A stretch of DNA of 64,000 nucleotides from Candidatus Krumholzibacteriia bacterium (GTDB taxonomy: Bacteria; Krumholzibacteriota; Krumholzibacteriia; LZORAL124-64-63), in contig JAGLCY010000030.1 of the NCBI GenBank assembly GCA_023270185.1, positions 1,134-65,133 on the forward strand, written 5' to 3'. Under the pieces are notes generated by a model, which had not been told where the DNA came from, made no database searches, and saw only the letters and a program-made list of their open reading frames with translations. This document shows, piece by piece, positions 15,410 to 38,311 of this stretch. Numbering within the stretch: position 1 is the stretch's first letter; each line of letters opens with the position of its first letter. The position numbers and the translations under genes were made by a program.

Positions 15410-16645
15410 TTACCGCGCCCACTTCGAGCCCGAACCCCGCCCCTTACCCGCCCGAGCGCGCTGCCGGGCCGCCCGTGCCGAAGCCGCCAGGCAGGCCGCG
15501 ACGGTGGGCGAGTGCCACTGGTGATCCTCGAAAACTATCAGCGGTGTTTTCAAAAGACGCTCGACGCCCCGCAGATACGATACATCCTCGACGCAGCACA
15601 ACGACACAGCCACACCCGCTTTGCCGGCCCTCGCCGTACGTCCGATGCGGTGAATGTAATTTTCGGCGTCTTCAGGCAGTTCGTAGTTGATGACGTGGGA
15701 AATGCCCTCGACGTCGATGCCGCGGGCCACGATGTCGGTCGCCACCAAAACCTGCACCTTGCCACGGGTGAAGGCTTCTAGGGCGCGCTGCCTCTGGCGT
15801 TGGGATTTGTCCGAGTGGATGGCTTCCGCGCGAATACCGGCCTGCTCCAGATGCCTCGCCACTATGGTGGCGGCAACCTTGGTGCCGGTGAACACCAGTG
15901 CCCTCTCGGTATCGTCGCCCTTCAACAGTTCGACCAGCAGATCGGCTTTGTCCGCTTTGGCCACGAACATCACCCGCTGTTCGATGTTGTCGGCCACCGC
16001 GGCGGGCGGCGCCACCGAAATACTTTGGGCATCGGTCTGCATGGTGGAAGCCAGGCTGCGCACGCCGCCGGTCATGGTGGCCGAAAACAGCAGTGTCTGG
16101 CGCGGTTTTGGCACACGGTCGGCGACCCAGCGCACATCGTGCACGAATCCCAGGTCGAGCATGCGGTCGGCCTCGTCCAGGATGAGGAATTCGACGTCGT
16201 CGAGGATCATCTCCCCCTGTTTGACCAGGTCGATGAGCCGCCCGGGCGTGGCTACTACAAAGTCGACTCCCCGGCGCAGACGATCGATCTGCGGTCCGGA
16301 GGGAACTCCCCCCAACAGCACCGCGGTGCGGGTGCCGACATGGCGTCCGTAGGCGCGGATATTTTCATCGACCTGCAGGGCCAACTCGCGGGTGGGCGCC
16401 AGCACCAGGGCCAGTGGAGTGTCACCCTTTTCAGATGGACGCGTGGCGATATCGTCGATGATGGACAGCGTGAACGCGGCCGTCTTGCCGGTCCCGGTCT
16501 GGGCACTGGCGATCAGATCAAGGCCGGCATTGACGATGGGAATGGCCGCCTCTTGGATAGGTGTGGGCTCTGTGTAACCGCATTCGGCCAGAGCGCGCAG
16601 CACAGGCTGGCTCAGACCGAGATCGGAGAATTTTATCGTGGACAT
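15410..16645 (-). CDS. rhlE: DEAD-box ATP-dependent RNA helicase (RhlE-like)
   Basis: Q-motif and Walker A AQTGTGKT, DEAD box (LILDEADRML), SAT, HRIGRTAR motif, basic C-terminal tail. Confidence 0.9.
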   Translation of the reverse strand: MSTIKFSDLGLSQPVLRALAECGYTEPTPIQEAAIPIVNAGLDLIASAQTGTGKTAAFTLSIIDDIATRPSEKGDTPLALVLAPTRELALQVDENIRAYGRHVGTRTAVLLGGVPSGPQIDRLRRGVDFVVATPGRLIDLVKQGEMILDDVEFLILDEADRMLDLGFVHDVRWVADRVPKPRQTLLFSATMTGGVRSLASTMQTDAQSISVAPPAAVADNIEQRVMFVAKADKADLLVELLKGDDTERALVFTGTKVAATIVARHLEQAGIRAEAIHSDKSQRQRQRALEAFTRGKVQVLVATDIVARGIDVEGISHVINYELPEDAENYIHRIGRTARAGKAGVAVSLCCVEDVSYLRGVERLLKTPLIVFEDHQWHSPTVAACLAASARAARQRARAGKGRGSGSKWAR

Positions 16646-17525: not shown

Positions 17526-18158
17526 TTATGATTTTATCGTGATGACCTCATCAACATTGTTGAATATCTTTTCGACCCTTTGCTGCCAGAGTTCACCGAA
17601 GCTTTCCTTGTCTTCTGGTGAAGCCACGCCCTGCATGATCTTCTGCATGAGTTCCTGCTGGCTCGGATGACCTTCGACACCACTGGGGTCATAGACCACT
17701 TCCACGCTCCGGCCATTGTCGAGCCGCTTGAATTTCGCGCTGGAGGTGATGTCGGCTTCAAACTCCATCAGGCCATGCCGGACAAAGTTGCCGCCGATTC
17801 CCTTGAATCCCAACGTGGTTGTGGCTCCCGTGATCTGGGTCACGACATTGGCAATCACCCCGGCCACACCTTCTTCCTCCTCCTCCTTGAAGGACACGAA
17901 AATTTCTCCCCGGACAGGAAGTTGATCCTTGTAGAGGGCCTTCAATGCTTCCCTGGTCATCAAATAGGCGCCGGCAACCGTCGGGCAACTGTGTCCGGCA
18001 CTCTTGACGACGTCCAGATAACCGTACTCCACGTTCCCGCCTTCAAACGTTCCCAGTAAAGCAGACAGGTTGTCCTGAAGTTTTATGGATTCAATCGTGT
18101 CGAAAAACAGAGGGTATTTCACTTGATGGTCTCCTTGTAGGTGAAAGAGAGGCGGCAA
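17526..18158 (-). CDS. FmdE/FwdE-like domain protein
   Basis: SAGHSCPTVAGAYLMTREALKAL resembles the HxCPG-containing core of formylmethanofuran dehydrogenase subunit E family proteins. Lies immediately downstream of the Clp-like/RF-like fusion gene on the same strand, with a 27 bp gap. Confidence 0.45.
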   Translation of the reverse strand: MPPLFHLQGDHQVKYPLFFDTIESIKLQDNLSALLGTFEGGNVEYGYLDVVKSAGHSCPTVAGAYLMTREALKALYKDQLPVRGEIFVSFKEEEEEGVAGVIANVVTQITGATTTLGFKGIGGNFVRHGLMEFEADITSSAKFKRLDNGRSVEVVYDPSGVEGHPSQQELMQKIMQGVASPEDKESFGELWQQRVEKIFNNVDEVITIKS

Positions 18159-18185: not shown

Positions 18186-21100
18186 TCACGAAAAGTAAGA
18201 GTGTGTATCGGTAGGTGGATCCCCGGCACACGCCCCCAGTAAATCAAAATCCCCTTCAAGAACCCGGTCCAGCCGTCCCGTTCTCCATCCTCGGCTCCGA
18301 TCCTTCACCAGCGGGTCCGGCAACTCGCGATAGATCCTCACCATCGGCGGGGCCCCGGCCATGGGTTCACGCATGACCTCCCGCGCCACCCTCAACAGCT
18401 CATCATTCCGCTCCGCCACACTGTCCTCGGGCATGGGGGCCACCCGGACCAGGACCTTGTGCTGGATCGAGGCTTTCGACTTGCGGGGATCAGGTTCCTC
18501 CCAAACATGCAGCCCTGTTTCCGACGCCAGGATATCATAAGCCGCATACCCCGACACGCCCAGCATCAGGGACCTGCCGCTGCCCGGCTTGTGGGCGACA
18601 TCTTCCAGCACCCGGACACGCATCTTGCGCCGTTGTCCCCACTGGCGGTACATCCCGCCAAGACGATCGACCCACTCGTCGACGATTTTACTCTCGATCC
18701 CCGGCCCCTGCTTGCTCTCAATACGGATAAAAGCTTCCCATGCCGAGCGTGACTCCAGGGAGCGGCAGGCCAATTCCAGCAAGTGGAAACGTCCGGCTGC
18801 CTGACCCACCAGCTTGCGGGGATAGTGTTCTTTGGGTCCGGTGCCCGGCAGCGCGATCTTCGGCAACAATCGTCCTGCCGCCTCCACTCCGGATTCGACA
18901 CGCTCCCGGTATTCCACCTCGCCCAGCACCGCGTATCGTTCAGTGGATGACCAGAATTCCGGTAACGCGGTCATGGACAGGGCCAGACTCTTGGCATCCT
19001 TCCAACCCGGCGATTCCAGGTATTGGCACAACTGCCGCCAGTGTCTGGTCAGGTCCTCGAGTTCCGCGGGGGTCCCCTTTGGATTCAGGGCGATGGCTGC
19101 GAGGCTGGTCGAAACACCACCCACGGTCGGAGTGCATGGATCGTTCTGGATCTCCTGTTCCGTTTCTTCGCCGTTGTCCTGCTCGGCCTCCGGGTTGATG
19201 AACTCGGTGAGCAGACTGTTCTCCCGCGCCTGGATATATAAAAACTGATCACCGGCCGGGAACTCCCCCTTGACGATCGTCTCAGCCAGGGGAGTCAGCA
19301 GATAGCGCTCGATGGCTCGTTTCAGCGGGCGAGCTCCCAGGGTCGGGCTGAACCCCTTGTTGAGCAGGAATTCCAGGGCTGAATCCTCCCAGACAACATC
19401 CCATTGGCGATTGCGGAGTCCGCGGCGCTTCTGGACATCATGCAGTTCCTTATCCAGGATCTCCCGCATGATTTCCCGGGTAAATGGCCGAAACACTATC
19501 ACGCGATCCAACCGGTTGAGAAACTCCGGACGGAAGGCCTTTTCCACGGCACGGCCCACGTCGCCGGCGCGAAATCCCTCGCCGTCCTGGTCAAAACCCA
19601 GGCCCACGCCGGTGGCTGCCTGCCCACCCAGATTCGAGGTGAGAATGATGATGGAGTGGCGGAAATCAGACGTTCGGCCCATGGGATCGGTCAGGCGACC
19701 ATCGTCGAAAACCTGCAGGAAAAGGTCCCACACCTTCGGATGAGCCTTCTCGAACTCATCCAGAAGAATGACCGAGAAGGGTTGCTTGCGGATCTTGAGC
19801 GTCAGGGATTCGCGGTCGAGATTTTGTCCGTCGCCGACCAGTCGTTCCAGGCTTTCCGGTGTCTGGAATTCGCTCATGTCATGGCGCAACAGCCGATCTT
19901 CCGACCCGAAGAGATAGCTGGCCAGAGCCTTGGCGATCTCGGTCTTGCCGGTGCCCGTCGGTCCGGCAAACAGGAACACGCCCTGGGGCCGGGACGGATC
20001 GGTCAAGCCCGCCTTGATCAGGGTGATGCGTTCGATGAGGCAATTGACGGCCTCGGGTTGGCCCAGGATCCGCTTGCTGAAAAATGCCCGTAACTGTTCC
20101 GGATCCAGCATCTGGCGTTCATCAAGGATCTGGCGGGGCAGACTGGTCATAGCTATCAACGTGGTGATCAGATCGTCACGGGTGATCTGCACCGGATCCC
20201 GGGACTCGGCCAGCACCTGCATTCGCGCCTGATCCAGGAACGACATCAGGCAACCCGGCGGTTCACGGTCCCGCAGATACTGGCGCGCCAGCAACCAGGC
20301 CTCGTGGATGCTTGTTTCGGTCAGGAGTTTTGGACCGAGGGCCTTCGACCAGGCCGCGGCAAGTTCCAGGGTAGCGGTCTCACCCAACGGCTTGATGCGG
20401 TAGACCTCGCACGAGGTCAACAGCCGGGGCTTGTCCTGGGCCAGTTGTTCGAAAGCAGCTGCCGGTAGCTCTCCGACAATGATGATCTCTCCTGATTCGA
20501 GTAGTGGCATAATAATATCCAGGATGCTGCTCCTGGAATGATCGTGGGTCCCGGCCCAACTGAGGGACTGGAAATCCGGCACATACCAGAGAACCTGCCG
20601 GCCGCCGCTGAGTTGCTTAACGAGTTCCTTGATTCTCTGATCGAGATCCCCGAAATACCTCTGGCCGGCCGTCATGTCGGACCCCGAGGCCTCGAAGACG
20701 ATCCACCCATTGTCCATGAGTTCGCGCCCCACCTGGCGCGCTACGGCGGTCTTGCCCACACCGTGTTCACCCGTAAGCAGCACCGAGCGGCGAGGGGTTT
20801 GTCGGATCGTGCGCAGAACATCCTGAACCTGGGCCGCAAGCTGGGGATGATCGATCACCAGCGGACCGGAGTTCGCGTCGGGATCCCAGATGCGACCGAT
20901 TGCCTGAAGGACGTCCCGGTCGATAAAAGCGGCCCGCCACTGATCGAGCTCGGCCTGAAGAGGCTCCGCCGCATCTTTCAACGGAGAATCCAGCGCGACG
21001 GTCAAGACCCCCCGCAGGCTCTCCCCTTTCTCCACGTCCAGTTTTTCCAGCAGCTCGCCGAAGGTCGACTTTTCCCCGTCCGCCAACCGGTCCGTCAGCA

Positions 21101-21603
21101 CCGGGGTCATGCTATTGATCAGGATGTCGAGCCAGGGTCCCTCATAATCCCGGATCTTGAAGAAAAGTTCACCCGCCAACGACCGATCGAACGGTGTGTG
21201 CTGCAGCAGTGCCTTCATTACGAAAAATTTATGCCAGGGCCCTCCTTGATCGAACAGCCGGAGCAGGGGAGCAACCAGTTCCGGATCACTATCGCGCTGA
21301 CTGACGGCCATGACCCCCATTTGCCACAAGGCCTTTGATGGATCATTACTGAGTTCAAGCAGCTCTTTGCTGGGGAAGGCGGAGTTTCTCAGCAGGTCGA
21401 CACCCGACTGAAAATCATTCATTTCCGCCAGGTCGTCTGGGGAATCCACGTCGTCGATATAACCGTCTACCACCGCGGCCTGGCCCTTGGCGGCGGTCAT
21501 CTGGGTTTTCTTTTCGAGCTCGGCCTTCCTGTCGAGATCAGCCTGGGAAACAGGTCGGTTCAGATTCTTCAATAAGGCTTTCAAATATTCAATGATACCC
21601 ATC
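18186..21603 (-). CDS. ClpA/ClpB-family tandem AAA+ ATPase with a novel N-terminal domain and a C-terminal class-I peptide-chain-release-factor-like module lacking the GGQ motif
   Basis: Start taken at MGIIEYL (GGAG 9 nt upstream). NBD1 has Walker A GEHGVGKT but an atypical Walker B (VLWYVPDF). NBD2 is canonical (FAGPTGTGKTEIAKALA, ILLDEFEKAHPKVWDLFLQVFDDGRLTD, ILTSNLG). The last 330 aa or so align to RF1/RF2 PCRF and RF-1 cores: AFIRIESKQGPG vs AGTGG; MYRQWGQRRKMRVRVLE vs MYLRWAESRGFKTEIIE; LGVSGYAAYDILASETGLHVWEE vs [35 protein letters not shown] vs HTSFSSAFVYPEVDD; C-terminal RTGRLDRVLEGDFDLL vs [21 protein letters not shown]. The GGQ loop region is deleted or replaced (MREPMAGAPPMV). Confidence 0.85.
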
Positions 21604-21713
21604 GACTGGACTCCATCCGGGCGAAGAGACAATTGGCTCAACACATGGCTGATGCTACCACAACTTCAACCGGGAGTGTATCCTGGGCTCAAACGGATGG
21701 TTCGGGCAGTCAA

Positions 21714-22817
21714 TTATTTGACTAGTACCATTCTCTTTGTCTCTGTGAGACCCGCAGCCTCAAGACGGTAGAAGAAAACACCTGATGGTACTTGCTGTCC
21801 TGAATCGTTTCGACCGTTCCAAACAACCTCGCTGCGGCCCTGTGGCACTGTCTCATCATTCAGGAGAGTGCGTACCAGGTGGCCTGACAAATCGTATACC
21901 CGGAGGCTGGCGATCGTCTCTTGCGGAAGGTTAAATGAAATAGTCGTCTGGGGATTGAAAGGGTTGGGATAGTTCTGCAACAGACGCGGCGCGTGTATTG
22001 GAAGTGTTCCATCCTGAACGCTACTCGGTAGTGATGGAAACACTCCTGATTCCGATGTCCAGGTCACGCCCGGAGTAACCTTGAACTGGGTGATCTTCAG
22101 ACCGTCGGAAAAGTCGAAATACCCATCACCGGTCACGTAGCCGCTGCCCGTATTGTATGACACGGACCAGGTCTGACCGTTGTAGATCCCCACGCGAAAC
22201 TGCAGGTCGTATTCCTGTGGGTTGTTCAGGGTTGATCCGGGGGAAACCAACTGTACCGTGAGCATGAAATCTTCGTTGACCTGAATCGTGCCCTCCTCAT
22301 CGACGCCCACTTCAAGTATCCCTGTATCGAAGATCTCGGTGTGCAGAGAGACGCGGCATTGGGCCCTGGATCCAGCACCGATATCCGAACCGATGGTGCC
22401 GATCGCCCTACCTCCGATAGAGACTTGCACGCCGTCGGCATAGTATCCAGCGGGAACCGTGTAGGTCAAAACGTCCAGAAACGATATATCCTCCACCCGG
22501 CCGGTGCCGACATGGATATGGTTGAGGTTATCCTTCACACCGTGGGCATATGCCTGGGCGCTGACCGTGGCGGTGGACATATCAACATAGAAAACTGCTG
22601 ACCCGTAATTACCGGCGCCGCCGAACTTGGTGAAATCACCATCCACGTAGATCTGGTTGAGGAGGACGGCATCGTCCATGATGGGAATGCCGTCAGAACC
22701 CGTGGCATAGACGTAGTAGTCGTAGGAGACATAGAAAGCAACGGCCGGAGAGGCCAAAACCGTGAGAAGAAACACCATCCCACAGACACAAGAGACGAAT
22801 CCACCGAATTTCATGAC
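21714..22817 (-). CDS. Secreted protein with T9SS C-terminal sorting domain (Por_Secre_tail)
   Basis: Start at MKFGGFVSCVCGMVFLLTVLASPAVA (signal peptide). C-terminal LQNYPNPFNPQTTISFNLP...GVFFYRLEAAGLTETKRMVLVK. Confidence 0.75.
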   Translation of the reverse strand, partial: VMKFGGFVSCVCGMVFLLTVLASPAVAFYVSYDYYVYATGSDGIPIMDDAVLLNQIYVDGDFTKFGGAGNYGSAVFYVDMSTATVSAQAYAHGVKDNLNHIHVGTGRVEDISFLDVLTYTVPAGYYADGVQVSIGGRAIGTIGSDIGAGSRAQCRVSLHTEIFDTGILEVGVDEEGTIQVNEDFMLTVQLVSPGSTLNNPQEYDLQFRVGIYNGQTWSVSYNTGSGYVTGDGYFDFSDGLKITQFKVTPGVTWTSESGVFPSLPSSVQDGTLPIHAPRLLQNYPNPFNPQTTISFNLPQETIASLRVYDLSGHLVRTLLNDETVPQGRSEVVWNGRNDSGQQVPSGVFFYRLEAAGLTETKRMVLVK

Positions 22818-23016
22818 ATTTCCCCTTTGCCCAGCAGCCCTCCAGCATTCATCCACGAAATCGATTTGGGCGATGACATTATTATATCATAAAATCGCTA
22901 TTGCTTTCCAAAATCCTGAACTCGTCCGTTTGACACAACCACCCCTCCGCGCCTAAGTTAGCTACCGAGGTGTCATCATTTTACGATTTGCTATTACAAC
23001 CCTGCTTATCATCCTG

Positions 23017-25986
23017 ATGTTGGACGCCGCCTCCGCCAACGCCTCGGTGCACGACATCCACCTCCACACCGACAGCACGCCCGATTATGTATCCATCGAG
23101 GACTTTGTGGCCACCGCCACCAGCGTCTGGGACGATCCGGAAGACGAAGCCATCGCCCTGTGGCGTTGGATGGTGCGCAGCCACCTGCAGACCAGCACCA
23201 CCCGCGAGGACGGCGCCCCGATCTGGGACCCCATCCGATTCTACGGCAGCTACGCCAACACCAACTGCGGATACAAGGCGGCCTTCCTCACCGCCTTCGT
23301 CGAAACCAAAGGTGGCAACTGGCGGCACCGCTACGTCGAGTTGAGTGACCACACCGTTGCCGAAGTATCCTGGGATGCCGGCGCCACCTGGCATATGTTC
23401 GACGCGTCCATGGTGGTCTATGCCCGCCGGCATGACGGCGCCATCGCCTCCTGTGCCGACATCGCCACGGCCACCAGTTGCGATCTGTCGGACTTCTGGG
23501 GTGATCCGGCTGCCGAGCCCGGACATCTCTATCTCTATCACGCCGCCGCCGAGTGCATGACCAACCCGCCGGACCCCGACCACCCCTTTGACCTGGGATA
23601 TCCCAGCGGCTACCGGAAAGGCGCCGACAACCCGGTGCCGTTCTCGCGTACCCTGCGCAACGGCGCCGACTCCTACCTCTCGGGTTTCGACGTGCAGGAG
23701 GCCTTCACCCACATACGGCGCGGCTGGCGCAACCGCCTGCACCTGCACCCCGGTCACAGTTACACCCGTTACTGGTTACCCCTGGGGGCGGGCCCCGAGT
23801 ACGCGCGGCTCACTACCAAGGGAAACGACCCCAACGATTCCTACTATCCGGCCAACATCCGCAGCAATGGCCGCTGGGAAATCGCCCCTGACTTCACGGC
23901 TGCCGACGTTCGGGGCGGCTGGCACCAACTCACCGGGTTGGTGCATCGCGATCAGGATGGCGGCGCGGGGCCGATCCTGCGCCCCGGACCCGATGTGAAC
24001 CAGGCCGATGCAGTGGTCAAGATCGATGCCGCCAACGTGATCACCTCGGCCGGGGTCTATCTGGCCGGACAGCGGGGCAGTGGCGACCAGGTGACCCTTG
24101 AGTTTTCCCGAGATGCCGGCTGCACCTGGACCCAGGTGGCGGCGCCGGCGGCCGGCTCCTTCGCGACCTGGTATAATCTGCCGGCGAACCTGGTGGGCGG
24201 CGCCTTCGAGGTCCTGTTACGAGTGCGCCTCGTGCCCGATGCCACCCGTCAGGATTGCGGCCTGAACGACTTGCGCGTCGAAGCCACCACCCAACTCAAC
24301 CGCATGACGCTGCCGCGCCTGCAGCGTGGCGCCAACCGGGTGCGCTTTGCCGCCGGCCCACCGCGGGAAACACTGACCTTGAGGCCCACCCTGCACGCCG
24401 GATCTCAGTACCATTGGACAGTTTCGGCCGCCGACTTTACCGGCCTCACCTCGCAGATTGAGCCCGGGGGCTACTCGTCGGCCATCGTGGTGCCCACCCT
24501 GGCCAACGCGCCCGGCAGCGTGACCTGGCGCGTCGACACCCCCAGTGATCTGCTCAGCGCCACCTTCGGTGGCAGCTTCCTGACTCGTTACGGTGGCTCA
24601 GGCGACCAGGTGCGATTGCGTTATTCGTGGGACGGTCAGAACTTCACGACGGCGGCAGTATTCGACGCCGGCACCGCGCCCACCTGGAATGCCATCCTGT
24701 ATGCCACGCCCGATCTTGTGCCCCCCGACGCGCGCGCCATCTGGCTGCAGTACGATGTGCACAGTTCGGTGAGCGCGTCTTCCCAGAGCACGGGTATCCA
24801 GGATGCCCTCCTGCAGGTGCACCACGCCGCCCACGACCCGACGTTTGTGCCGGTGGAAGTGACCTGGTGTTGGATCGAACACCGAACCGAGGGCGGCCTC
24901 ATGCGGCGGCATACCCGCGTGGTCACCACGGCCGACGAGGTTTGGGACCTCAACGTTTCCGGCTATCGCGACCCCACCATGCAATGGGTACGGGTGCAAC
25001 TGGCCGACCCGGGCGCTTCCGAGGGCTATGACGACGGGATCGACGTGGGCCCCGGCGCCGGCTTCGACCTGGTGAAGATCTCAGCCGATTGGATCGACGA
25101 TCTGGCTTTCGGCCGATCCTACACCGTGTCTCGACCTGCCTCGTCTGTCAATCCGGATACCGATGGCCTGGAGCTCACCGATGGCGTGATCATCCCACCC
25201 ACTACGTACCAGACGTCCACCTACGTGCAGGGCCAGGTGGCGTACTGGGAAGGGGACGATCCCCTGACGGTGACCGTCGACCTCGGCAGCGAACAACCCG
25301 TGCACGCCCTGCGCGTCACATCCCACCAACCCAGCGCCCAGTTCGGCCATGCCGGCACCATCGCGGCTTTCGGTCTGGACGACGACGGCGCCGCCACAAG
25401 TCTGGGAGTCATCCAGCACGATGATATCTGGAGCCCGTCGGGCGACCATCTCGACTGGGGCTACTGGCGTTCGGGCGACTTCGCCGACCTGCCCGCGGGC
25501 GGTCGCCTTGCCCACGGTTACTGGTTGGTGCTTGAAACGCCGACCACCGCGCGTCAGGTGCGGCTGGAAATTCTGCCCCTGGCCGGCCACGGCGTGGGCA
25601 TCAGCGAAGTGCAGGTATTTTCAGCGGTGAGCGTGTCCGATTGGCCCGACCGGGAGGTGGACCTGGGCGCGGTGTCGGCAGTGGTGTTCGATGACGCGCC
25701 GGCATCCAGACAACGGCAACACCTGTCCGTGACACCCAACCCGGCCAACCCCGGCACATTCATCGGTTACGAACTGCCTCGCGCCTCCCGGGTGGTCATG
25801 CGCATGATCGACGTGCGAGGTCGCCTGGTGCGCAACCTGGTTGACGGGTGGCGGCCCGCCGGAGCGCATCGAGCATTCTGGGATGGACGCGATAACGCGG
25901 GGCGCGCGGTGGCCTCGGGGGTTTACCTGGCGGTGGGCGAGTGGACGGGTGGTCGAACTATTGGACGCGTCACGCTGGTGCGATGA
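23017..25986 (+). CDS. Large secreted protein with N-terminal transglutaminase-like cysteine protease domain and T9SS/FlgD-Ig-like C-terminal sorting domain
   Basis: Cys-His-Asp arrangement NCGYKAAFLTAF...DHTVAEVSWDAGATWHMFDAS. C-terminus ...NPANPGTFIGYEL...GVYLAVGEW...RVTLVR. The in-frame sequence upstream of the first ATG encodes a better signal peptide (IILRFAITTLLIILMLDAASANA), so the true start is probably a non-ATG codon near 22975. Confidence 0.7.
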   Translation: MLDAASANASVHDIHLHTDSTPDYVSIEDFVATATSVWDDPEDEAIALWRWMVRSHLQTSTTREDGAPIWDPIRFYGSYANTNCGYKAAFLTAFVETKGGNWRHRYVELSDHTVAEVSWDAGATWHMFDASMVVYARRHDGAIASCADIATATSCDLSDFWGDPAAEPGHLYLYHAAAECMTNPPDPDHPFDLGYPSGYRKGADNPVPFSRTLRNGADSYLSGFDVQEAFTHIRRGWRNRLHLHPGHSYTRYWLPLGAGPEYARLTTKGNDPNDSYYPANIRSNGRWEIAPDFTAADVRGGWHQLTGLVHRDQDGGAGPILRPGPDVNQADAVVKIDAANVITSAGVYLAGQRGSGDQVTLEFSRDAGCTWTQVAAPAAGSFATWYNLPANLVGGAFEVLLRVRLVPDATRQDCGLNDLRVEATTQLNRMTLPRLQRGANRVRFAAGPPRETLTLRPTLHAGSQYHWTVSAADFTGLTSQIEPGGYSSAIVVPTLANAPGSVTWRVDTPSDLLSATFGGSFLTRYGGSGDQVRLRYSWDGQNFTTAAVFDAGTAPTWNAILYATPDLVPPDARAIWLQYDVHSSVSASSQSTGIQDALLQVHHAAHDPTFVPVEVTWCWIEHRTEGGLMRRHTRVVTTADEVWDLNVSGYRDPTMQWVRVQLADPGASEGYDDGIDVGPGAGFDLVKISADWIDDLAFGRSYTVSRPASSVNPDTDGLELTDGVIIPPTTYQTSTYVQGQVAYWEGDDPLTVTVDLGSEQPVHALRVTSHQPSAQFGHAGTIAAFGLDDDGAATSLGVIQHDDIWSPSGDHLDWGYWRSGDFADLPAGGRLAHGYWLVLETPTTARQVRLEILPLAGHGVGISEVQVFSAVSVSDWPDREVDLGAVSAVVFDDAPASRQRQHLSVTPNPANPGTFIGYELPRASRVVMRMIDVRGRLVRNLVDGWRPAGAHRAFWDGRDNAGRAVASGVYLAVGEWTGGRTIGRVTLVR

Positions 25987-26000
25987 GATTCACCGACGAT

Positions 26001-27206: not shown

Positions 27207-29783
27207 ATGCGAATCCTCCTGGTAATGTTTCTGGCGGTGCCCGCTCTGGTTATGGCCGTCTCGCCCGTCGCGCTGGTTGGAATCCCCCTCGATCAACCCG
27301 GTAACCAGGCTCGCTTCAATGAAATTATAGGTGAGTTGGATGTGCTTACGATCAAACCGGGCTCCTTTGCCCGGGTGGCGGCCAGTGCTTTCGACCTGGA
27401 AGTCATGAGTGAAGCCGGCCTCACGTTTAATATCCTGAACCAGGACATGGAATCCACCTTCAGTTTCCCCGACAAAAGCCTTCATTACGGGGCTTATCAT
27501 ACCTGGAGCGAGAACATCGCATTCATCGACAGCCTGCGCCTGCTCTATCCCGATGTCATCAGTGCCAAGTGGTCCATCGGCCAAAGTCTCGAAGGCCGGG
27601 AAATCTGGGCCTTCCGAATTTCCGACAATCCGGATATAGACGAGAACGAGCCTGAGATCCTCATCGACGGCGCTCACCACGCCCGCGAGATCATGTCCTC
27701 GGAATTTCCAATCATGTTCGCCGAGTATTTGGCGCGTGGTTACGGTTCGGACACTGAAATCTCGTGGCTTCTCAACAACCGGGAATTGTACATCGTACCG
27801 ATCGTAAATCCGGACGGATTCATCTATAACGAGATGACCAATCCCGACGGTGGCGGAATGTGGCGAAAGAACCGCCGCGACAATGGCGATGGCACATTCG
27901 GAGTCGATCTGAACCGCAACTATACATACCAGTGGGGCTATGACGATAACGGCAGCTCCCCCACCACCAGCGCTTTGACATATCGAGGTCCCTCGGCCGG
28001 CAGTGAACCGGAGACCCAAGTCATGATGGACTTTATCAATAGCCGCAATTTTCGCACCCATGACTCGGTGCACACCTTCAGTAACGTGGTCATCTACCCT
28101 TGGAGCTACGTCGATGCCCCGGCCCCGGACAATGCGGTGCTGGCTTCCATGTCCAACGAAATGACCAGATACAACGGCTATCTTCCAGGCCAAGGTAGTC
28201 AGATCCTGTACTTCACAAATGGTGGCGCCAGGGATTGGGCCTACGGCGCAACAAACGAACACGCCAAGGTTTTCAGCTTCACTACCGAGATAGGAGGTTA
28301 TGGCGATGGTTTTTGGCCCTCGGAAGCTCGCCGTGACGAACTTTTCCAGGAGAACATCTGGCCCCACATCTATCTGATGCGGGCGGCAGGCGCCTTTGTG
28401 GCAGTGCACTCACCCGTGGTAACGCCCGACCCGGCCAAAACCATCGACCCCGGACAGTCCGGGATGTTGACTTTCATGGTACAGAATCAAGCTGCCTCCA
28501 CTACCAGCGCTCCCCTCACTATAACCTTGAGCTCGGATGACCCCTGGTTATATCTGGGCCAATACGAACGCTCGATCGCCGCTTTGTCGCCGCAGGGTTT
28601 CGATGACCTGACTGGCAACCCGATTCCTTTCAATGTGCATCCGGACTGTCCCTCCGGACACTTGACCGATGTGCTCATCACGGTGCCCATGCCGGAAGGA
28701 ACCAGAACTTTCACCCTGACTTTCCTGATTGGTGTCGGACAAAGCCTGCTGGTGGACAACATGGAAGGGGACACAAGCAATTGGGTATTCGATGATACCT
28801 GGGGTCAAACGACCAGCCAAAGTCATGGTTTTGGAGGTACGTCATTGACCGATTCGCCCGATGGCAGTTACAGCAACGAACAGTCCTCTGCCGCAACCCT
28901 GGTTGGCAGCTTTTACGCCACCGCCATTTCTTTCTGGCACCTCCACGTCATTGAACACGGTTACGACTTTGGCTACTTGCAGGTACGCCCCCTCGGTGGC
29001 GACTGGACCAACGTCGGATCGTATTCCGGTTTCCTGGGTGGCTGGACCCAGGTAACCGTTACCCTGGACCAATACCTGGGACAAAAGCTGGAAATCCGAT
29101 TTCTTCTGGAAACGGACATAGGTGTGGTCAATGACGGCTGGTATATAGACGATGTGGAAATATTCGGTCAATCCAACAGTAATCTCGCCCCTGATATTCC
29201 CCTGCCACTTTCCTCTGCCGGCGTTGACTCATCGCAGATACTTCGCGTGGCGGCGGGCCCGGATCCAGAGGGCAGTCAGGTCGTCTGCGGCTTTCGCCTC
29301 TACCACCGGATTGCGGGCCTCTGGAAATTGATGGCCGAAAGTGATGATATTCCCACGGTGGCCGAAGAGGCCTCCTGGACCACACCATCCCTTCCGGACG
29401 GAGAATACAAATGGCGGGCCTGGGCCGGGGACGGCGAAGTGCGAAGCGACCTTTCTGCTGACCTGGTCTTCCTCATCGACCACGTTTCAGCCGTAGACCA
29501 AATAGCCCTGGATGGTCCGACCTTCCGCATCCTGAGCGTGAAAGACGGGCGGGTTCGCCTGCAACTGAGCCTCGATAACGGTACCGACGTTGAGGTCGCC
29601 ATCTACGATGTACGCGGAGCCCGTATCCAGAGTCTGCACCGCGGCTGGTTGGACGGAGGTCTGCGTGTATTGATTTGGGATGGTTGCGATCGCGCCGGCC
29701 GCAACGCAGCCAGTGGCGTATACCTGGCCCAGGCACGGGTAGGCAAGCGGGTCCTTACCAACAGGTTGGTGCTTGTTCGTTGA
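27207..29783 (+). CDS. M14 family zinc carboxypeptidase with C-terminal T9SS/FlgD-Ig-like sorting domain
   Basis: Signal peptide. Zinc-binding HxxE (IDGAHHAREI), NPDGF, propeptide-like N-terminus. C-terminal ...GVYLAQARVGKRVLTNRLVLVR. Confidence 0.85.
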   Translation: MRILLVMFLAVPALVMAVSPVALVGIPLDQPGNQARFNEIIGELDVLTIKPGSFARVAASAFDLEVMSEAGLTFNILNQDMESTFSFPDKSLHYGAYHTWSENIAFIDSLRLLYPDVISAKWSIGQSLEGREIWAFRISDNPDIDENEPEILIDGAHHAREIMSSEFPIMFAEYLARGYGSDTEISWLLNNRELYIVPIVNPDGFIYNEMTNPDGGGMWRKNRRDNGDGTFGVDLNRNYTYQWGYDDNGSSPTTSALTYRGPSAGSEPETQVMMDFINSRNFRTHDSVHTFSNVVIYPWSYVDAPAPDNAVLASMSNEMTRYNGYLPGQGSQILYFTNGGARDWAYGATNEHAKVFSFTTEIGGYGDGFWPSEARRDELFQENIWPHIYLMRAAGAFVAVHSPVVTPDPAKTIDPGQSGMLTFMVQNQAASTTSAPLTITLSSDDPWLYLGQYERSIAALSPQGFDDLTGNPIPFNVHPDCPSGHLTDVLITVPMPEGTRTFTLTFLIGVGQSLLVDNMEGDTSNWVFDDTWGQTTSQSHGFGGTSLTDSPDGSYSNEQSSAATLVGSFYATAISFWHLHVIEHGYDFGYLQVRPLGGDWTNVGSYSGFLGGWTQVTVTLDQYLGQKLEIRFLLETDIGVVNDGWYIDDVEIFGQSNSNLAPDIPLPLSSAGVDSSQILRVAAGPDPEGSQVVCGFRLYHRIAGLWKLMAESDDIPTVAEEASWTTPSLPDGEYKWRAWAGDGEVRSDLSADLVFLIDHVSAVDQIALDGPTFRILSVKDGRVRLQLSLDNGTDVEVAIYDVRGARIQSLHRGWLDGGLRVLIWDGCDRAGRNAASGVYLAQARVGKRVLTNRLVLVR

Positions 29784-35514: not shown

Positions 35515-36099
35515 TCAGTTGGTCATGCCCGCAAAGCCCATGAAGGCCAGCGACATGACGCCTGCAGTTACCAACGCAATGGCCGTTCCGCGCATGGCGA
35601 CCGGAACCGATGAGATAAAAAGACGCTCCCGCACACTGGCGAAGAGAAGAATTGCCAAAGCAAATCCCGCCGCACTGGACGCCGAGAAGACAATCATTTC
35701 CACAAAATCAAAACCGTGTTTGATGTTCAAAAGGGCTATACCCATGACCGCGCAGTTGGTTGTGATCAACGGCAGGAAGATTCCCAGCGAGTCGTACAGA
35801 CCCTTGCTCTGCTTCTTGATGAAGATCTCCACGAACTGTACCAAGGCAGCGATGACCAGGATGAAAACCAGGGTTTTGAGGTACTCCAGTCCCTGTGGTT
35901 CAAGTAGGTAGTGATATACGATCCAGGTAAAAATCGAAGCCAATGTGGACACGAAAATGACGGCCACACCCATACCGATAGCGGGACCCAGCTTCTTGGA
36001 CACGCCGCAGAAAGGACAGTTGCCAAGGTACTGCGCCAGCAGGATGTTATTGACGAAAATCGAGCCGATAACCAACAGAAACAGATCCATGGTATTCAC
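35515..36099 (-). CDS. rnfA: Rnf complex subunit RnfA
   Basis: Near-collinear with E. coli RsxA (LVNNILLAQYLGNCPFCGVSKKL...LGIFLPLITTNCAVMGIALLN...LMSLAFMGF). Confidence 0.9.
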   Translation of the reverse strand: MNTMDLFLLVIGSIFVNNILLAQYLGNCPFCGVSKKLGPAIGMGVAVIFVSTLASIFTWIVYHYLLEPQGLEYLKTLVFILVIAALVQFVEIFIKKQSKGLYDSLGIFLPLITTNCAVMGIALLNIKHGFDFVEMIVFSASSAAGFALAILLFASVRERLFISSVPVAMRGTAIALVTAGVMSLAFMGFAGMTN

Positions 36100-36102
36100 C
36101 CC

Positions 36103-36714
36103 CTAGGTCTGGATAAAGAATTCGCCGCGACGACGACTCCACGCGTTCATCAGACCCAGCAGCAAACCCAGACACAGGAAGGCGCCGGGAGCCTGGACCA
36201 TGAAACCGAAAGGTTCGAAACTGTCAGGGAAAACCGCCATACCGAACCAGGTGCCGACACCCAGGATCTCGCGGATCGACCCGACCAGGGTCAACGATAT
36301 CGAAAAACCCAACCCCACACTCAGACCGTCGGCCATGGACAGATGCACCGGATTGCGCGAAGCAAAGGCCTCGGCCCTGCCCAGAATGATGCAATTGACA
36401 ACGATCAGCGGGATGTAGATTCCCAACTGTTGCGAGAGAGGGAAAAAGAAGGCCTTCATCGCCAGTTCGACGATCACCACCAGGGTGGCGATCACCACGA
36501 TATAGCTGGCGATACGCACCTTGTCGGGAATAACTTTCCGCAAAAGCGAGATGAACATGTTCGAGAAGATCAGCACAAAGGTCACGGCAATCCCCATACC
36601 AAGGCCGTTCTCGGCTGTGGCCGTCACGGCCAGCGTCGGACAAAGACCCAGAACCATCCGAAACGGCGGCAGATCACGCCAGAGACCGTGGGTCAGCGTT
36701 TGGCGAAAATTCAT
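36103..36714 (-). CDS. rnfE: Rnf complex subunit RnfE
   Basis: GLCPTLAVT motif and polytopic membrane profile homologous to RsxE/NqrD. Confidence 0.9.
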   Translation of the reverse strand: MNFRQTLTHGLWRDLPPFRMVLGLCPTLAVTATAENGLGMGIAVTFVLIFSNMFISLLRKVIPDKVRIASYIVVIATLVVIVELAMKAFFFPLSQQLGIYIPLIVVNCIILGRAEAFASRNPVHLSMADGLSVGLGFSISLTLVGSIREILGVGTWFGMAVFPDSFEPFGFMVQAPGAFLCLGLLLGLMNAWSRRRGEFFIQT

Positions 36715-37334
36715 CAGCCTTCACCTCCGGAAACTGCGCCGCCTGAAGACCGCTCCTCAATGAGCAAGAGGATCTCCTGACGGTGATCCCGCAACATTTC
36801 CACCACTTGGTTGGTACCGTCGACCATTGCCCGGGACGAGAATGTGGCACCGGTAATGGCGTCTATTCCACCACCGTCACTGGTCAGAGATACCGGTTGG
36901 TCGAGGGTCAAACCTGTCCATTGCTGTCGGAAGCTTGCCAACTCGACCTTGGCTCCCACGCCCGGTGTTTCGCTGTGACTGACGATTTCCACGCCCAACA
37001 CACGGTCGTCGCGCGGATCCAGACCGATCATGATCACGATGTCGCCACTGTAGCCGCCGTGACCGGCCGCTTCGACGGCCAGGCCCGTTACTTCCCCGGC
37101 TTCGCGCAGATAAAACACCGGGTAGGTCTGGTCCCCCACCGGAACAGTCAACTTCTCGGTAAGCAGTCCCTCGGCCGGTTGCTTGAACAACCGCTCCAGG
37201 GCAGGTCCGCGCACATAGAAATCCTCTTGCATTTCGATGCGGCCGGCCAAACTCGTGCGCACGTAGGCCAGGGCCGCCGCACTCAGGGAGCAGATGACTC
37301 CCAACACAAGAACCAGGTGAGCAATCTCACGCAA
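36714..37334 (-). CDS. rnfG: Rnf complex subunit RnfG (FMN-binding)
   Basis: N-terminal TM helix. FMN_bind motif ...DAITGATFSSRAMVDG with the conserved Thr for covalent FMN. Confidence 0.85.
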   Translation of the reverse strand: MREIAHLVLVLGVICSLSAAALAYVRTSLAGRIEMQEDFYVRGPALERLFKQPAEGLLTEKLTVPVGDQTYPVFYLREAGEVTGLAVEAAGHGGYSGDIVIMIGLDPRDDRVLGVEIVSHSETPGVGAKVELASFRQQWTGLTLDQPVSLTSDGGGIDAITGATFSSRAMVDGTNQVVEMLRDHRQEILLLIEERSSGGAVSGGEG

Positions 37335-38307: not shown

Positions 38308-38311
38308 TTCC

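What the first reader, a model, noticed from the sequence alone, without database searches (positions are those of the whole stretch)
18186..21603. ClpA/B-family AAA+ ATPase fused to a GGQ-less class-I release-factor-like module
The 1139-aa product has an uncharacterised helical N-terminal domain of about 280 aa followed by tandem AAA+ domains. NBD1 has a degenerate Walker B (VLWYVPDF); NBD2 is canonical. The last 330 aa or so align block by block with bacterial RF1/RF2. The PCRF core MY-x-RW, the ISGxYAYGxLxxETGVHR block, the HTS...V.V.PE strand and the C-terminal RTG...VLdGdlD helix are all present. The segment that should carry the catalytic GGQ loop is replaced (MREPMAGAPPMV), with about 60 residues deleted. 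A Clp-type unfoldase/disaggregase joined to a catalytically dead, ribosomal A-site-shaped domain suggests an ATP-driven factor that recognises stalled or empty-A-site ribosomes, or extracts nascent chains, without peptidyl-tRNA hydrolysis. I am not aware of a described family with this architecture. It is followed by an FmdE-like gene on the same strand, so they may form a two-gene operon.
Basis: partly seen in the sequence, partly recalled or inferred. Interest (0 to 1): 0.85.

Follow-up and report, generated by a model that had tools for sequence, protein, structure and literature searches.

The report
Clp ATPase fused to dead release-factor module
This gene encodes a real, widespread but undescribed bacterial protein: a Clp-type ATP-driven motor with a loop that looks able to dock the ClpP protease, fused to a copy of translation release factor 2 that has lost both its catalytic and its stop-codon-reading parts, so it may be a new ribosome-directed quality-control machine.

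Summary

The fusion is not a chimera. It is collinear in about 60 genomes across more than 10 phyla, and there are 368 cluster representatives at 50 % identity.

- An invariant [ILVM]-G-F tripeptide lies exactly where ClpA/ClpC/ClpX carry their ClpP-docking loop.
- The NBD2 pore loop has lost GYVG and is acidic.
- There is no M-domain.

The FmdE neighbour is not conserved and there is no conserved synteny. I found no paper describing this family; databases call it "ClpC" or "PCRF domain-containing protein".

Best reading (about 0.4): a ClpP-coupled AAA+ machine targeted to ribosomes by a catalytically dead RF2 mimic. The function is untested, and loss of the decoding-centre contact motifs argues for caution.

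The parts
18186..21602 (-). Complete CDS, 1138 aa plus stop: Clp/Hsp100-type double AAA+ ATPase with a C-terminal RF2-like module
   Evidence: ORF list; translation; RBS GGAG 8 nt upstream of the ATG; domain hits
20835..21602 (-). N-terminal all-alpha, acidic domain (residues 1-256). Family-specific, poorly conserved, HEAT/ARM-like at best. It is not a Clp_N domain and is absent from ~880-aa variants
   Evidence: No Pfam hit. AF2 model pLDDT 67, all helices. Only non-significant HEAT/ARM/alphaRep matches, E >= 0.09. Median net charge -14. Short variants
20103..20834 (-). NBD1 (residues 257-500): nucleotide-binding but probably hydrolysis-dead AAA+ module, with no M-domain
   Evidence: AAA_16/AAA hits. 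The ClpB alignment skips ClpB residues 402-519, i.e. the M-domain
20748..20771 (-). NBD1 Walker A, GEHGVGKT (intact; Lys in 45 of 50 family members)
20634..20669 (-). NBD1 pore loop AGQRYFGDLDQR. The aromatic residue is kept (Tyr in 35 and Phe in 12 of 50 members). It aligns to ClpB AGAKYRGEFEER
20571..20594 (-). Degenerate NBD1 Walker B, VLWYVPDF. ClpB I-D-E corresponds to V-P-D here; the family consensus is hhWxhP[N/D]F
19203..20102 (-). NBD2 plus D2-small domain (residues 501-800): the most conserved part of the protein, with canonical ATPase motifs
   Evidence: AAA_2 5.7e-43 and ClpB_D2-small 8.9e-19; conservation profile about 0.85; motifs
19941..19964 (-). NBD2 Walker A, GPTGTGKT
19809..19838 (-). 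NBD2 pore loop VGDGQNLDRE. The canonical G-Y-V-G is deleted. The loop is acidic or small, and in the family alignment only one member (L017) shows an aromatic residue
   Evidence: Alignment to ClpB 'GAPPGYVGYEEGG'; family block; charge
19749..19772 (-). NBD2 Walker B, VILLDEFE (canonical D-E)
19593..19601 (-). L-G-F tripeptide in the loop after sensor-1. [ILVM]-G-F is invariant in the family and aligns residue-for-residue with the ClpA I-G-L ClpP-docking motif
   Evidence: BAP (ClpB with the ClpA loop, 5ofo) alignment. Family block of 49 readable rows (48 relatives plus the window protein), all [ILVM]GF. LGF as the ClpC/ClpB discriminator: PMC10149685
19095..19202 (-). Variable acidic linker (residues 801-836) between the Clp core and the RF-like module
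   Evidence: pLDDT below 50; low conservation; median charge -7
18237..19094 (-). RF2-like module (residues 837-1122): RF domain 1 (about 837-950) and the domain 2/4 superdomain (about 951-1122), without domain 3
18483..18491 (-). D-P-R at the position of the RF2 stop-codon-reading 205-SPF-207 motif. Not conserved in the family
   Evidence: phmmer alignment; family block; role of SPF from PMC6742477
18345..18434 (-). 30-residue variable segment with one short helix that occupies the slot of RF domain 3 (GGQ). About 60 residues fewer than RF2
   Evidence: Model secondary structure. Family block and slot length, median 30. No RF-1 hit in 19 of 19 members
18237..18344 (-). Near-invariant Arg/Trp-rich C-terminal motif, VR(R)YRExP(S/D)PLV(R/K)DxxRGWRTGRLDRVLxGDFDL. 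It corresponds to RF domain 4 strands and the last helix
   Evidence: Alignments. It served as the search pattern WRTGRL[DE]RV that found 107 genomes
17526..18158 (-). Downstream FmdE-family gene, 27 nt after the stop. Locally co-oriented but not a conserved partner, so probably not part of the system
   Evidence: PF02663, E 4.3e-9. Present downstream only in L006, which is 94 % identical

Best explanation
What is shown (confidence about 0.95): the gene encodes a member of a large, conserved and uncharacterised subfamily of class-I Clp/Hsp100 AAA+ ATPases. Its parts, in order:
- An acidic helical N-domain.
- NBD1, which keeps Walker A and the aromatic pore-loop residue but has lost the Walker B acidic pair. 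It probably binds ATP without hydrolysing it.
- NBD2, a fully competent ATPase whose GYVG pore loop is replaced by a short acidic loop. It carries an invariant [ILVM]-G-F tripeptide at the position of the ClpA/ClpC/ClpX ClpP-docking loop.
- An acidic flexible linker.
- An RF2-derived module that keeps RF domain 1 and the domain 2/4 superdomain but has lost domain 3 (GGQ) and the codon-reading elements.

What is inferred (confidence about 0.4): the protein forms a hexamer. The RF2-shaped, catalytically dead module tethers it to ribosomes, at or near the A site and stalk region where RF domains 1 and 2/4 normally sit. This binding would be independent of a stop codon and could not release the peptide. 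ATP hydrolysis in NBD2 would then remodel or extract a ribosome-bound, probably basic, protein. That protein would be handed to ClpP through the [ILVM]GF loops. In logic this would be a bacterial, covalently fused counterpart of the pairing of an inactive or specialised RF paralogue with an ATPase.
For: Architecture and homology.

The fusion is genuine and ancient:
- Single collinear tblastn HSPs span query residues ~42-1122 in about 60 genomes from Krumholzibacteriota, Acidobacteriota, Calditrichota, Gemmatimonadota, Planctomycetota, Bacteroidota, Actinomycetota and others.
- The exhaustive search found 368 representatives at E <= 1e-30, and in the listed complete proteins the module always sits at the C-terminus.

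Loss of GGQ is universal in the family: PCRF is matched by 18 of 19 members and RF-1 by 0 of 19.

ClpP docking:
- [ILVM]GF is present in all 49 readable alignment rows and aligns exactly to ClpA IGL.
- LGF-type loops are the accepted marker that separates ClpP partners from ClpB (PMC10149685).

A ribosome link is suggested by:
- Retention of RF domain 1 with its conserved FW.S..R motif. In RF2 this domain bridges 30S and 50S at the A-site periphery (PMC6742477).
- The near-invariant Arg/Trp-rich domain-4 motif.
- A module much less acidic than RF2.

The acidic N-domain, linker and NBD2 pore loop would fit basic clients such as ribosomal proteins. This last point is inference.
Against: - The RF elements that contact the stop codon and decoding centre are not conserved. 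SPF is DPR or variable, the GGTE helix tip is lost, HRxxR has become HVxE (a charge reversal), and the Trp that I recall (unchecked here) lying in the RF2 switch loop aligns to Ala in the variable slot segment. Canonical A-site docking is therefore not assured.
- There is no conserved gene neighbourhood with translation, rescue or clpP genes.
- The active ring lacks an aromatic pore loop and the ring that has one cannot hydrolyse ATP, so processive threading into ClpP is doubtful.
- The RF module hangs from the ClpP-proximal end of the motor, not from the substrate-entry face, although a linker of about 30 residues could span the distance.
- There are no experimental data, and the monomer models say nothing about assembly.
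Confidence: 0.4

Rival explanations
1. The RF2-like module has been exapted as a non-ribosomal protein-protein interaction, adaptor-docking or autoregulatory domain. On this reading the protein is simply another ClpC/ClpA-like ClpP partner, and its substrates are chosen by the N-terminal helical domain and/or the module.
For: All codon-reading and decoding-centre contact motifs have decayed, while the structural core and a new conserved surface are kept. There is no synteny with translation genes. The [ILVM]GF loop is invariant. Other Clp subfamilies differ mainly in accessory domains (ClpI paper).
Against: It is hard to see why a complete three-domain RF scaffold, including domain 1, would be maintained at 35-45 % identity across more than 10 phyla if only a generic binding surface were needed. 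The invariant Arg/Trp-rich segment looks like a nucleic-acid contact (inference).
Confidence: 0.3
2. The protein is a non-threading, ClpP-independent ATP-driven switch or holdase. NBD2 hydrolysis moves the C-terminal RF-like arms, for example to pry factors off, split or cluster ribosomes. NBD1 only clamps, and the [ILVM]GF loop binds something other than ClpP, possibly the protein's own RF module.
For: The NBD2 pore loop has lost GYVG and its aromatic residue (one exception, L017, in the family alignment), and the loop is acidic. NBD1 has a dead Walker B. The module is attached directly after the nucleotide-sensitive D2-small domain.
Against: Invariance of the tripeptide at exactly the ClpP-docking position is most simply explained by ClpP binding. 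NBD1 keeps an aromatic pore loop.
Confidence: 0.17
3. The module acts as an RF2 decoy. It mimics RF2 to capture RF2-binding partners (ArfA/BrfA-like rescue factors, RF3, PrmC) and delivers them for unfolding or degradation, so regulating termination or rescue.
For: The module resembles RF2 more than RF1 (E 1e-6 against 0.03; prfB hit). It keeps domain 1 and the domain-2 beta-sheet. From my own knowledge of published ArfA-RF2 and BrfA-RF2 ribosome structures (several appear among the hits), these small rescue factors contact RF2 domain 2; I did not test that here.
Against: The PrmC and PTC-related surfaces in domain 3 are absent. Domain 1 charge differs strongly from RF2 (-2 against -21). No partner gene is linked.
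Confidence: 0.08
4. Artefact: an assembly chimera, or a frameshift-fused prfB-like gene next to a clp gene.
For: A few database entries are split into pieces: L001/L011 in Terriglobia and L005 at 1.94x coverage.
Against: The same uninterrupted architecture occurs in about 60 independent assemblies from many phyla, including contigs over 1 Mb and a complete chromosome. The exhaustive search lists many full-length proteins of about 1100 aa. The module is 17-23 % identical to real RFs, so it is not a recent prfB.
Confidence: 0.01

Closest known systems
ClpA / ClpC (class-I Clp/Hsp100 unfoldases that partner with ClpP)
   Same: Two AAA+ modules. AAA_2 and ClpB_D2-small domains. NBD2 with Walker A, Walker B, sensor-1 and sensor-2. 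The NBD1 pore-loop aromatic residue. A hydrophobic-Gly-Phe/Leu tripeptide at the ClpP-docking loop position. Full-length collinearity with ClpA residues 200-740.
   Different: No Clp_N domain. The NBD1 Walker B acidic pair is lost. The NBD2 GYVG pore loop is deleted. There is no M-domain (unlike ClpC). It has an extra 340-aa C-terminal linker plus RF-like module. Scores are far below the ClpA and ClpB equivalog cutoffs: about 300 bits against 993 and 1232.
Bacterial class-I release factor RF2 (prfB)
   Different: The whole GGQ domain 3 is missing. SPF, the GGTE helix tip, the basic residues around the codon-reading loop and the switch-loop Trp are all lost. The module is not free-standing but sits at the C-terminus of an AAA+ ATPase. 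The prfB model scores 32 bits against a cutoff of 370.
PrfH (RF-H), the release-factor paralogue that recognises damaged ribosomes with RtcB2
   Different: From my own knowledge, not tested here: PrfH keeps GGQ, lacks domain 1, is free-standing and is linked to rtcB. The present module is the reverse on the first three points (no GGQ, keeps domain 1, fused to an ATPase), and no conserved neighbour gene of any kind was found.
Dom34/Pelota with ABCE1, and Vms1 with Cdc48 (archaeo-eukaryotic rescue / RQC)
   Same: Functional logic only. In both, an RF-superfamily protein that is catalytically inactive (Dom34) or specialised (Vms1) works with an ATPase on stalled ribosomes (PMC6514570).
   Different: They are not homologous: they have the aeRF1 fold, whereas this module has the bacterial RF fold. 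The partners are separate polypeptides there and covalently fused here. A ribosome connection is not demonstrated for this family.
ClpI (Actinomycetota Clp class; Jiang & Schmitz 2023)
   Same: A bioinformatically defined extra class of double-ring Clp ATPases, some with LGF loops and variable N-domains.
   Different: ClpI has an M-domain and intact ATPase modules. No C-terminal RF-like domain is reported for it: 'release factor', 'PCRF' and 'C-terminal' each occur 0 times in the paper.

Membership tests
Clp/Hsp100 class-I AAA+ ATPases (ClpA/B/C) | Two tandem AAA+ modules, with an AAA_2-type NBD2 followed by the ClpB_D2-small domain | tested here: met
   AAA_16/AAA at 257-333; AAA_2 at 538-700 (5.7e-43); ClpB_D2-small at 708-786 (8.9e-19). 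ClpB, ClpC and ClpA in the PDB at E 1e-67 to 1e-82.
Clp/Hsp100 class-I AAA+ ATPases (ClpA/B/C) | Functional Walker B (hhhhDE) in both NBDs | tested here: not met
   NBD2 has LLDEFE. NBD1 has VPD here and P[N/D] family-wide in place of DE.
Clp/Hsp100 class-I AAA+ ATPases (ClpA/B/C) | Aromatic GYVG-type pore loop in NBD2 | tested here: not met
   A four-residue deletion leaves an acidic loop without an aromatic residue (one exception, L017, in the family alignment).
Clp/Hsp100 class-I AAA+ ATPases (ClpA/B/C) | Clp_N (Clp repeat) N-terminal domain | tested here: not met
   No Clp_N hit at E <= 1. The N-domain model is all-alpha, with only weak HEAT/ARM-like matches.
ClpB/ClpC | Coiled-coil M-domain inserted in NBD1 | tested here: not met
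   The alignment to T. thermophilus ClpB jumps from residue 402 to 519. The protein is collinear with ClpA, which has no M-domain.
ClpP-partner unfoldases (ClpA/ClpC/ClpX/ClpE) | Hydrophobic-Gly-Phe/Leu tripeptide in the surface loop after sensor-1 of the last AAA+ module | tested here: met
   LGF at residues 668-670 aligns to ClpA IGL. [ILVM]GF is present in all 49 readable alignment rows. Marker status per PMC10149685. Actual ClpP binding cannot be tested with these tools.
ClpA / ClpB equivalogs (NCBIfam) | Score above the curated equivalog cutoff | tested here: not met
   ClpB 302 bits against 1232; ClpA 301 against 993; ClpV, ClpK and ClpG also far below cutoff.
Bacterial class-I release factors (RF1/RF2) | PCRF domain / fold of domains 1, 2 and 4 | tested here: met
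Bacterial class-I release factors (RF1/RF2) | RF-1 domain (PF00472) with the catalytic GGQ motif | tested here: not met
   No PF00472 hit in this protein or in any of 19 relatives. The slot holds about 30 variable residues with no GGQ.
Bacterial class-I release factors (RF1/RF2) | Stop-codon-reading tripeptide (SPF in RF2, PxT in RF1) and the associated conserved residues | tested here: not met
   DPR lies at the SPF position and is variable in the family. GGTE and HRxxR are not conserved. Role of SPF: PMC6742477.
Bacterial class-I release factors (RF1/RF2) | Binding to the ribosomal A site | not testable with these tools
   No docking or multimer prediction was available. There are only indirect arguments for and against (see the report).
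PrfH (RF-H) | GGQ present, domain 1 absent, genomic linkage to rtcB | tested here: not met
ClpI | ClpC-like short M-domain and intact D1 and D2 ATPase motifs | tested here: not met
   No M-domain and a dead NBD1 Walker B. ClpI description.
Known anti-phage defence proteins (PADLOC) | Full-length match to a defence-system model | tested here: not met
   Only partial hits to the generic NBD2 core: DolB and PDC-M37B at residues 503-660. No copies on viral contigs or plasmids.

The most novel reading that the evidence does not exclude
The family is a previously unrecognised bacterial ribosome quality-control or turnover machine. A GGQ-less RF2 mimic, covalently tethered to a ClpP-docking AAA+ motor, would recognise ribosomes with a vacant or aberrant A site (stalled, damaged or hibernating), independently of a stop codon. 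It would then use ATP to extract and degrade ribosome-bound basic proteins or factors, or to dismantle the ribosome. This would be a fused bacterial counterpart of the Pelota-ABCE1 or Vms1-Cdc48 logic, and it would be widespread in poorly studied phyla.
Probability: 0.25. Interest if true: 0.9.

Novelty: new variant of a known kind. Interest (0 to 1): 0.72.

Why it matters
Bacterial ribosome rescue and quality control are currently explained by tmRNA, ArfA/ArfB/BrfA, PrfH-RtcB, RqcH/RqcP, HflX and MutS2 (from my own knowledge). In none of these, as far as I know, is an RF-derived A-site mimic physically coupled to a Clp unfoldase or protease.

If the module really targets ribosomes, this family would be a new, ATP- and probably ClpP-dependent branch of ribosome surveillance or turnover. 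It is present in hundreds of lineages (Acidobacteriota, Gemmatimonadota, Planctomycetota, Calditrichota, Krumholzibacteriota and others) that are common in soils and sediments.

Even if it does not target ribosomes, the family is of interest for three reasons:
- It is a natural experiment in AAA+ mechanics: a dead ring that keeps its aromatic pore loop stacked on a live ring with an acidic, aromatic-less one.
- It shows that the RF domain 2/4 superdomain can exist without the inserted GGQ domain.
- The family is large and well conserved, and it has clear mutational handles (LGF, NBD2 Walker B, the RGWRTGRL motif), so the hypothesis can be tested directly.

Tried and rejected
- FmdE two-gene operon. 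The FmdE gene follows only in L006 (94 % identical) and not in L007 (82 %) or any other locus. Rejected as a functional partner.
- Conserved synteny. All-against-all clustering of up to 5 neighbours on each side across about 70 loci gave no cluster in more than 9 loci, and those 9 are closely related Pyrinomonadaceae. ClpP lies nearby in 1 of 80 loci.
- Stand-alone GGQ-less RF proteins. The short hits on long contigs (P0009, P0017, P0018, P0029) turned out to be frameshift fragments or to be cut by contig ends. No proven free-standing version was found.
- ClpI identity. Rejected.
- Defence system or mobile element. PADLOC gave only generic AAA-core hits, and there were no viral or plasmid copies.
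- N-domain identity. Pfam found nothing and Foldseek found nothing significant.
- Technical failures.
- Literature. Five full-text searches and two papers read for this purpose found no description of an RF-like domain fused to a Clp/AAA+ ATPase.
- Other checks. Rfam found no RNA elements in the window. The AT-skew anomaly at 34-38 kb is an unrelated membrane-protein operon.


Full report
1. THE OBSERVATION

The window carries a long minus-strand ORF, 18186..21644 from the first GTG. The ATG at 21602 is preceded by GGAG at a spacing of 8 nt. Homologues align from that Met. I therefore take the gene as 18186..21602, 1138 aa.

Pfam gives AAA_16/AAA at residues 257-333, AAA_2 at 538-700 (E 5.7e-43) and ClpB_D2-small at 708-786. 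It also gives PCRF at 956-1032 with 26.4 bits, above the curated cutoff of 24. There is no hit to RF-1/PF00472, the GGQ domain. NCBIfam gives ClpB and ClpA at about 300 bits, far below their equivalog cutoffs, and a weak prfB hit.

2. THE C-TERMINAL MODULE IS A REAL RF2 HOMOLOGUE

- phmmer of residues 801-1138 against PDB sequences finds RF2 at E ~1e-6. The match covers RF2 residues 10-209 (domain 1 and domain 2), with a weak second match to the C-terminal strand and helix. RF1 scores much lower, at E 0.03.
- A profile of 19 family members aligns to E. coli RF2 residues 10-202 with 98.4 % probability, E 9e-15.
- An AlphaFold2 model of the module is confident: pLDDT 85.8, pTM 0.82.
- Foldseek returns only RF2 and RF1 at the top, E 1e-12, probability 1.0.

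The secondary-structure order matches RF domain 1, the beta-alpha-beta core of domain 2, and the two strands plus final helix of domain 4. A single short helix within about 30 residues sits where RF2 has the domain 3 of about 90 residues.

RF2's 205-SPF-207, which reads the stop codon (PMC6742477), corresponds to DPR here and is not conserved in the family. The same is true of the GGTE helix tip. It is also true of the basic residues of the 'GVHRLVR' strand, which is 'GLHVxE' in the family. The Trp of RF2's 'GWG', which I recall lying in the switch loop (not checked here), aligns to Ala in the variable slot segment.

The module is therefore dead for catalysis, and it has almost certainly lost the ability to read stop codons.

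3. THE FUSION IS NOT A CHIMERA BUT A LARGE FAMILY

The first homologue search found 29 proteins, many carrying ClpB_D2-small plus PCRF. Short hits on long contigs proved to be frameshift pieces of the same gene or to be cut by contig ends.

A scan of one genome per species with the family motif WRTGRL[DE]RV found 107 genomes, of which 80 loci were fetched. In about 60 of them a single collinear tblastn HSP covers query residues ~42-1122 at 38-94 % identity. The phyla include Krumholzibacteriota (closest: L006 at 94 %, L007 at 82 %), Acidobacteriota (many Pyrinomonadaceae), Calditrichota, Gemmatimonadota, Planctomycetota and Bacteroidota/Rhodothermales. Eisenbacteria, KSB1, Actinomycetota, Rokubacteria and Verrucomicrobiota are also represented, along with a complete Lysobacter chromosome. 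Nearly all are MAGs.

An exhaustive HMM search of 1.84 billion representatives with the module profile gave 368 proteins at E <= 1e-30 and 827 at E <= 1e-10. In every complete protein listed (about 1050-1290 aa) the module is at the extreme C-terminus. A minority of about 880 aa lack the N-domain.

PCRF is detected independently in 18 of 19 members and RF-1 in none. No copy is on viral contigs or plasmids.

4. ANATOMY OF THE MOTOR

This section uses an alignment of 50 full-length ORFs and alignments to solved ClpB, ClpA and ClpC.

- **NBD1.** Walker A is intact (GESGVGKT consensus). The pore-loop aromatic residue is kept (Tyr in 35 and Phe in 12 of 50), aligned to ClpB AGAKYRGEFEER. Walker B 'IDE' is 'VPD' here and 'P[N/D]' family-wide, with an invariant Trp and Pro. 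The Arg-finger positions are LL in this protein. This ring should bind nucleotide but not hydrolyse it.
- **M-domain.** There is none. The ClpB alignment skips residues 402-519, and the protein is collinear with ClpA 200-740.
- **NBD2.** Walker A, Walker B (LLDEFEKA), sensor-1 (TSN) and sensor-2 (GARPLKR) are nearly invariant, and this is the most conserved region. Its pore loop, however, has lost GYVG. ClpB 'RLIGAPPGYVGYEEGG' corresponds to 'RLVGDGQN----LDRES'. The family loop is acidic or small, and only one member (L017) has an aromatic residue.
- **ClpP-docking loop.** In the loop after sensor-1 the sequence LGF (residues 668-670) aligns residue-for-residue with the ClpA IGL that was grafted into the BAP hybrid (5ofo). 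All 49 readable alignment rows have [ILVM]-G-F there. The presence of an LGF-type loop is the accepted marker of ClpP-docking unfoldases as opposed to ClpB (PMC10149685).
- **N-domain.** It is all-alpha, poorly conserved and acidic (median charge -14). It has no significant structural match; the best hits are HEAT/ARM/alphaRep repeats at E >= 0.09.
- **Linker.** An acidic, disordered linker of about 30 residues joins the normal end of the Clp core to the RF-like module.

5. GENOMIC CONTEXT

The FmdE-family gene lies 27 nt downstream and is probably co-transcribed in this organism. It follows the gene only in the 94 %-identical L006.

Clustering neighbours across about 70 loci shows no conserved partner. 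clpP is nearby in only 1 of 80 loci.

PADLOC matches only the generic NBD2 core. The gene therefore looks like a stand-alone chromosomal housekeeping or stress gene.

6. HOW IT MOST LIKELY WORKS

Shown:
- A Clp-type double-ring ATPase whose only hydrolytic ring is NBD2.
- A sequence-level ClpP-docking tripeptide.
- A C-terminal RF2-derived scaffold without GGQ or SPF.

Inferred: the hexamer docks ClpP through [ILVM]GF. The RF2 mimic, on its flexible linker, localises the machine to ribosomes.

Arguments for ribosome targeting:
- The complete RF shape, including domain 1, has been maintained across phyla. In RF2 domain 1 bridges 30S and 50S at the A-site periphery.
- The strongest conservation in the module is an Arg/Trp-rich stretch of domain 4.
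- The module is far less acidic than RF2.
- RF paralogues have repeatedly become sensors of ribosome state: PrfH, and Dom34 and Vms1-Cdc48.

Arguments against:
- Every motif known to touch the codon and decoding centre has decayed, including a charge reversal next to the former SPF loop.
- There is no genomic linkage to translation genes.
- The motor is odd for a translocase, with its aromatic loop on the dead ring and an acidic loop on the live ring.
- The module sits at the ClpP-proximal end.

The consistently acidic N-domain, linker and NBD2 pore loop suggest basic clients such as ribosomal proteins. This is speculative.

I put about 0.4 on a ribosome-targeted, ClpP-coupled remodeller or degrader. 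I put about 0.3 on an exapted, non-ribosomal interaction or regulatory domain in a ClpC-like protease partner. A non-threading, ClpP-independent switch gets about 0.17, an RF2-decoy function about 0.08, and an artefact about 0.01.

7. COMPARISON WITH KNOWN FAMILIES AND NOVELTY

The protein belongs to the Clp/Hsp100 superfamily, but it fails several defining features of ClpA, ClpB and ClpC: the NBD1 Walker B, the NBD2 GYVG loop, the Clp_N domain, the M-domain and the equivalog cutoffs. Its module is homologous to RF2 but fails the defining functional features of a release factor, namely GGQ and SPF. It is not PrfH and it is not ClpI.

Five full-text searches and the comprehensive survey of release-factor evolution (PMC6514570) gave no description of such a fusion. 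That survey never mentions Clp. It does note that the GGQ domain is an insertion into the codon-recognition domain. Databases label members only as 'ClpC' or 'PCRF domain-containing protein'.

I rate it a new variant of a known kind: a new Clp subfamily with a new accessory module. There is a roughly one-in-four chance that it represents a new ribosome quality-control mechanism.

Interest: 0.72.

Noticed in passing
window 21714-22856 (-), 23017-25986 (+), 27207-29783 (+); also L002:979-7007: Several large secreted proteins end in FlgD_ig / Por_Secre_tail (T9SS-type) C-terminal domains, including an M14 carboxypeptidase. The same kind of neighbours flank the family member in L002. This fits an FCB-group / Krumholzibacteriota origin for the window.
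   Followed up: partly
L006 (JAUXGQ010000004.1): A contig labelled 'Gammaproteobacteria bacterium' is 94 % identical to the window protein and shares both flanking genes. The next relatives are all Krumholzibacteriia, so the label is probably a mis-binned or misclassified MAG.
   Followed up: partly
L001/L011 (Terriglobia JAXLQK010000034.1) and L005 (ERZ26696514, 1.94x coverage): The family gene is broken into 2-4 consecutive ORFs by frameshifts. These are either pseudogenes or assembly errors; I did not resolve which.
   Followed up: partly
L037, L063, L072, L074; P0061, P0126, P0156, P0158: Variants of about 880 aa lack the helical N-domain and begin just before NBD1. They come from MAGs labelled Bacteroidota (L037), Thermoleophilaceae and Gaiellaceae (L063, L072; Actinomycetota by my reading) and Rubricoccaceae (L074). 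The N-domain is therefore dispensable in some lineages.
   Followed up: no
window 15410-16645 (-): A DEAD-box RNA helicase (DEAD plus Helicase_C) lies 1.5 kb downstream on the same strand as the Clp-RF gene. It is not a conserved neighbour in other loci.
   Followed up: partly
window 35515-39592 (-): A strong positive AT skew at 34-38 kb coincides with a run of minus-strand genes for polytopic membrane proteins and an Fe-S protein. By eye this resembles an Rnf/Nqr-type complex operon (RnfA/E/G/D/C order). There are no tandem repeats.
   Followed up: partly
window 24001-26000: GC content rises to 0.66, against about 0.58 elsewhere, inside the 989-aa secreted-protein ORF at 23017-25986. I did not investigate the cause.
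   Followed up: no
window 1-64000: No Rfam family reaches its gathering score anywhere in the 64 kb, so no tRNA, rRNA or riboswitch was detected.
   Followed up: yes
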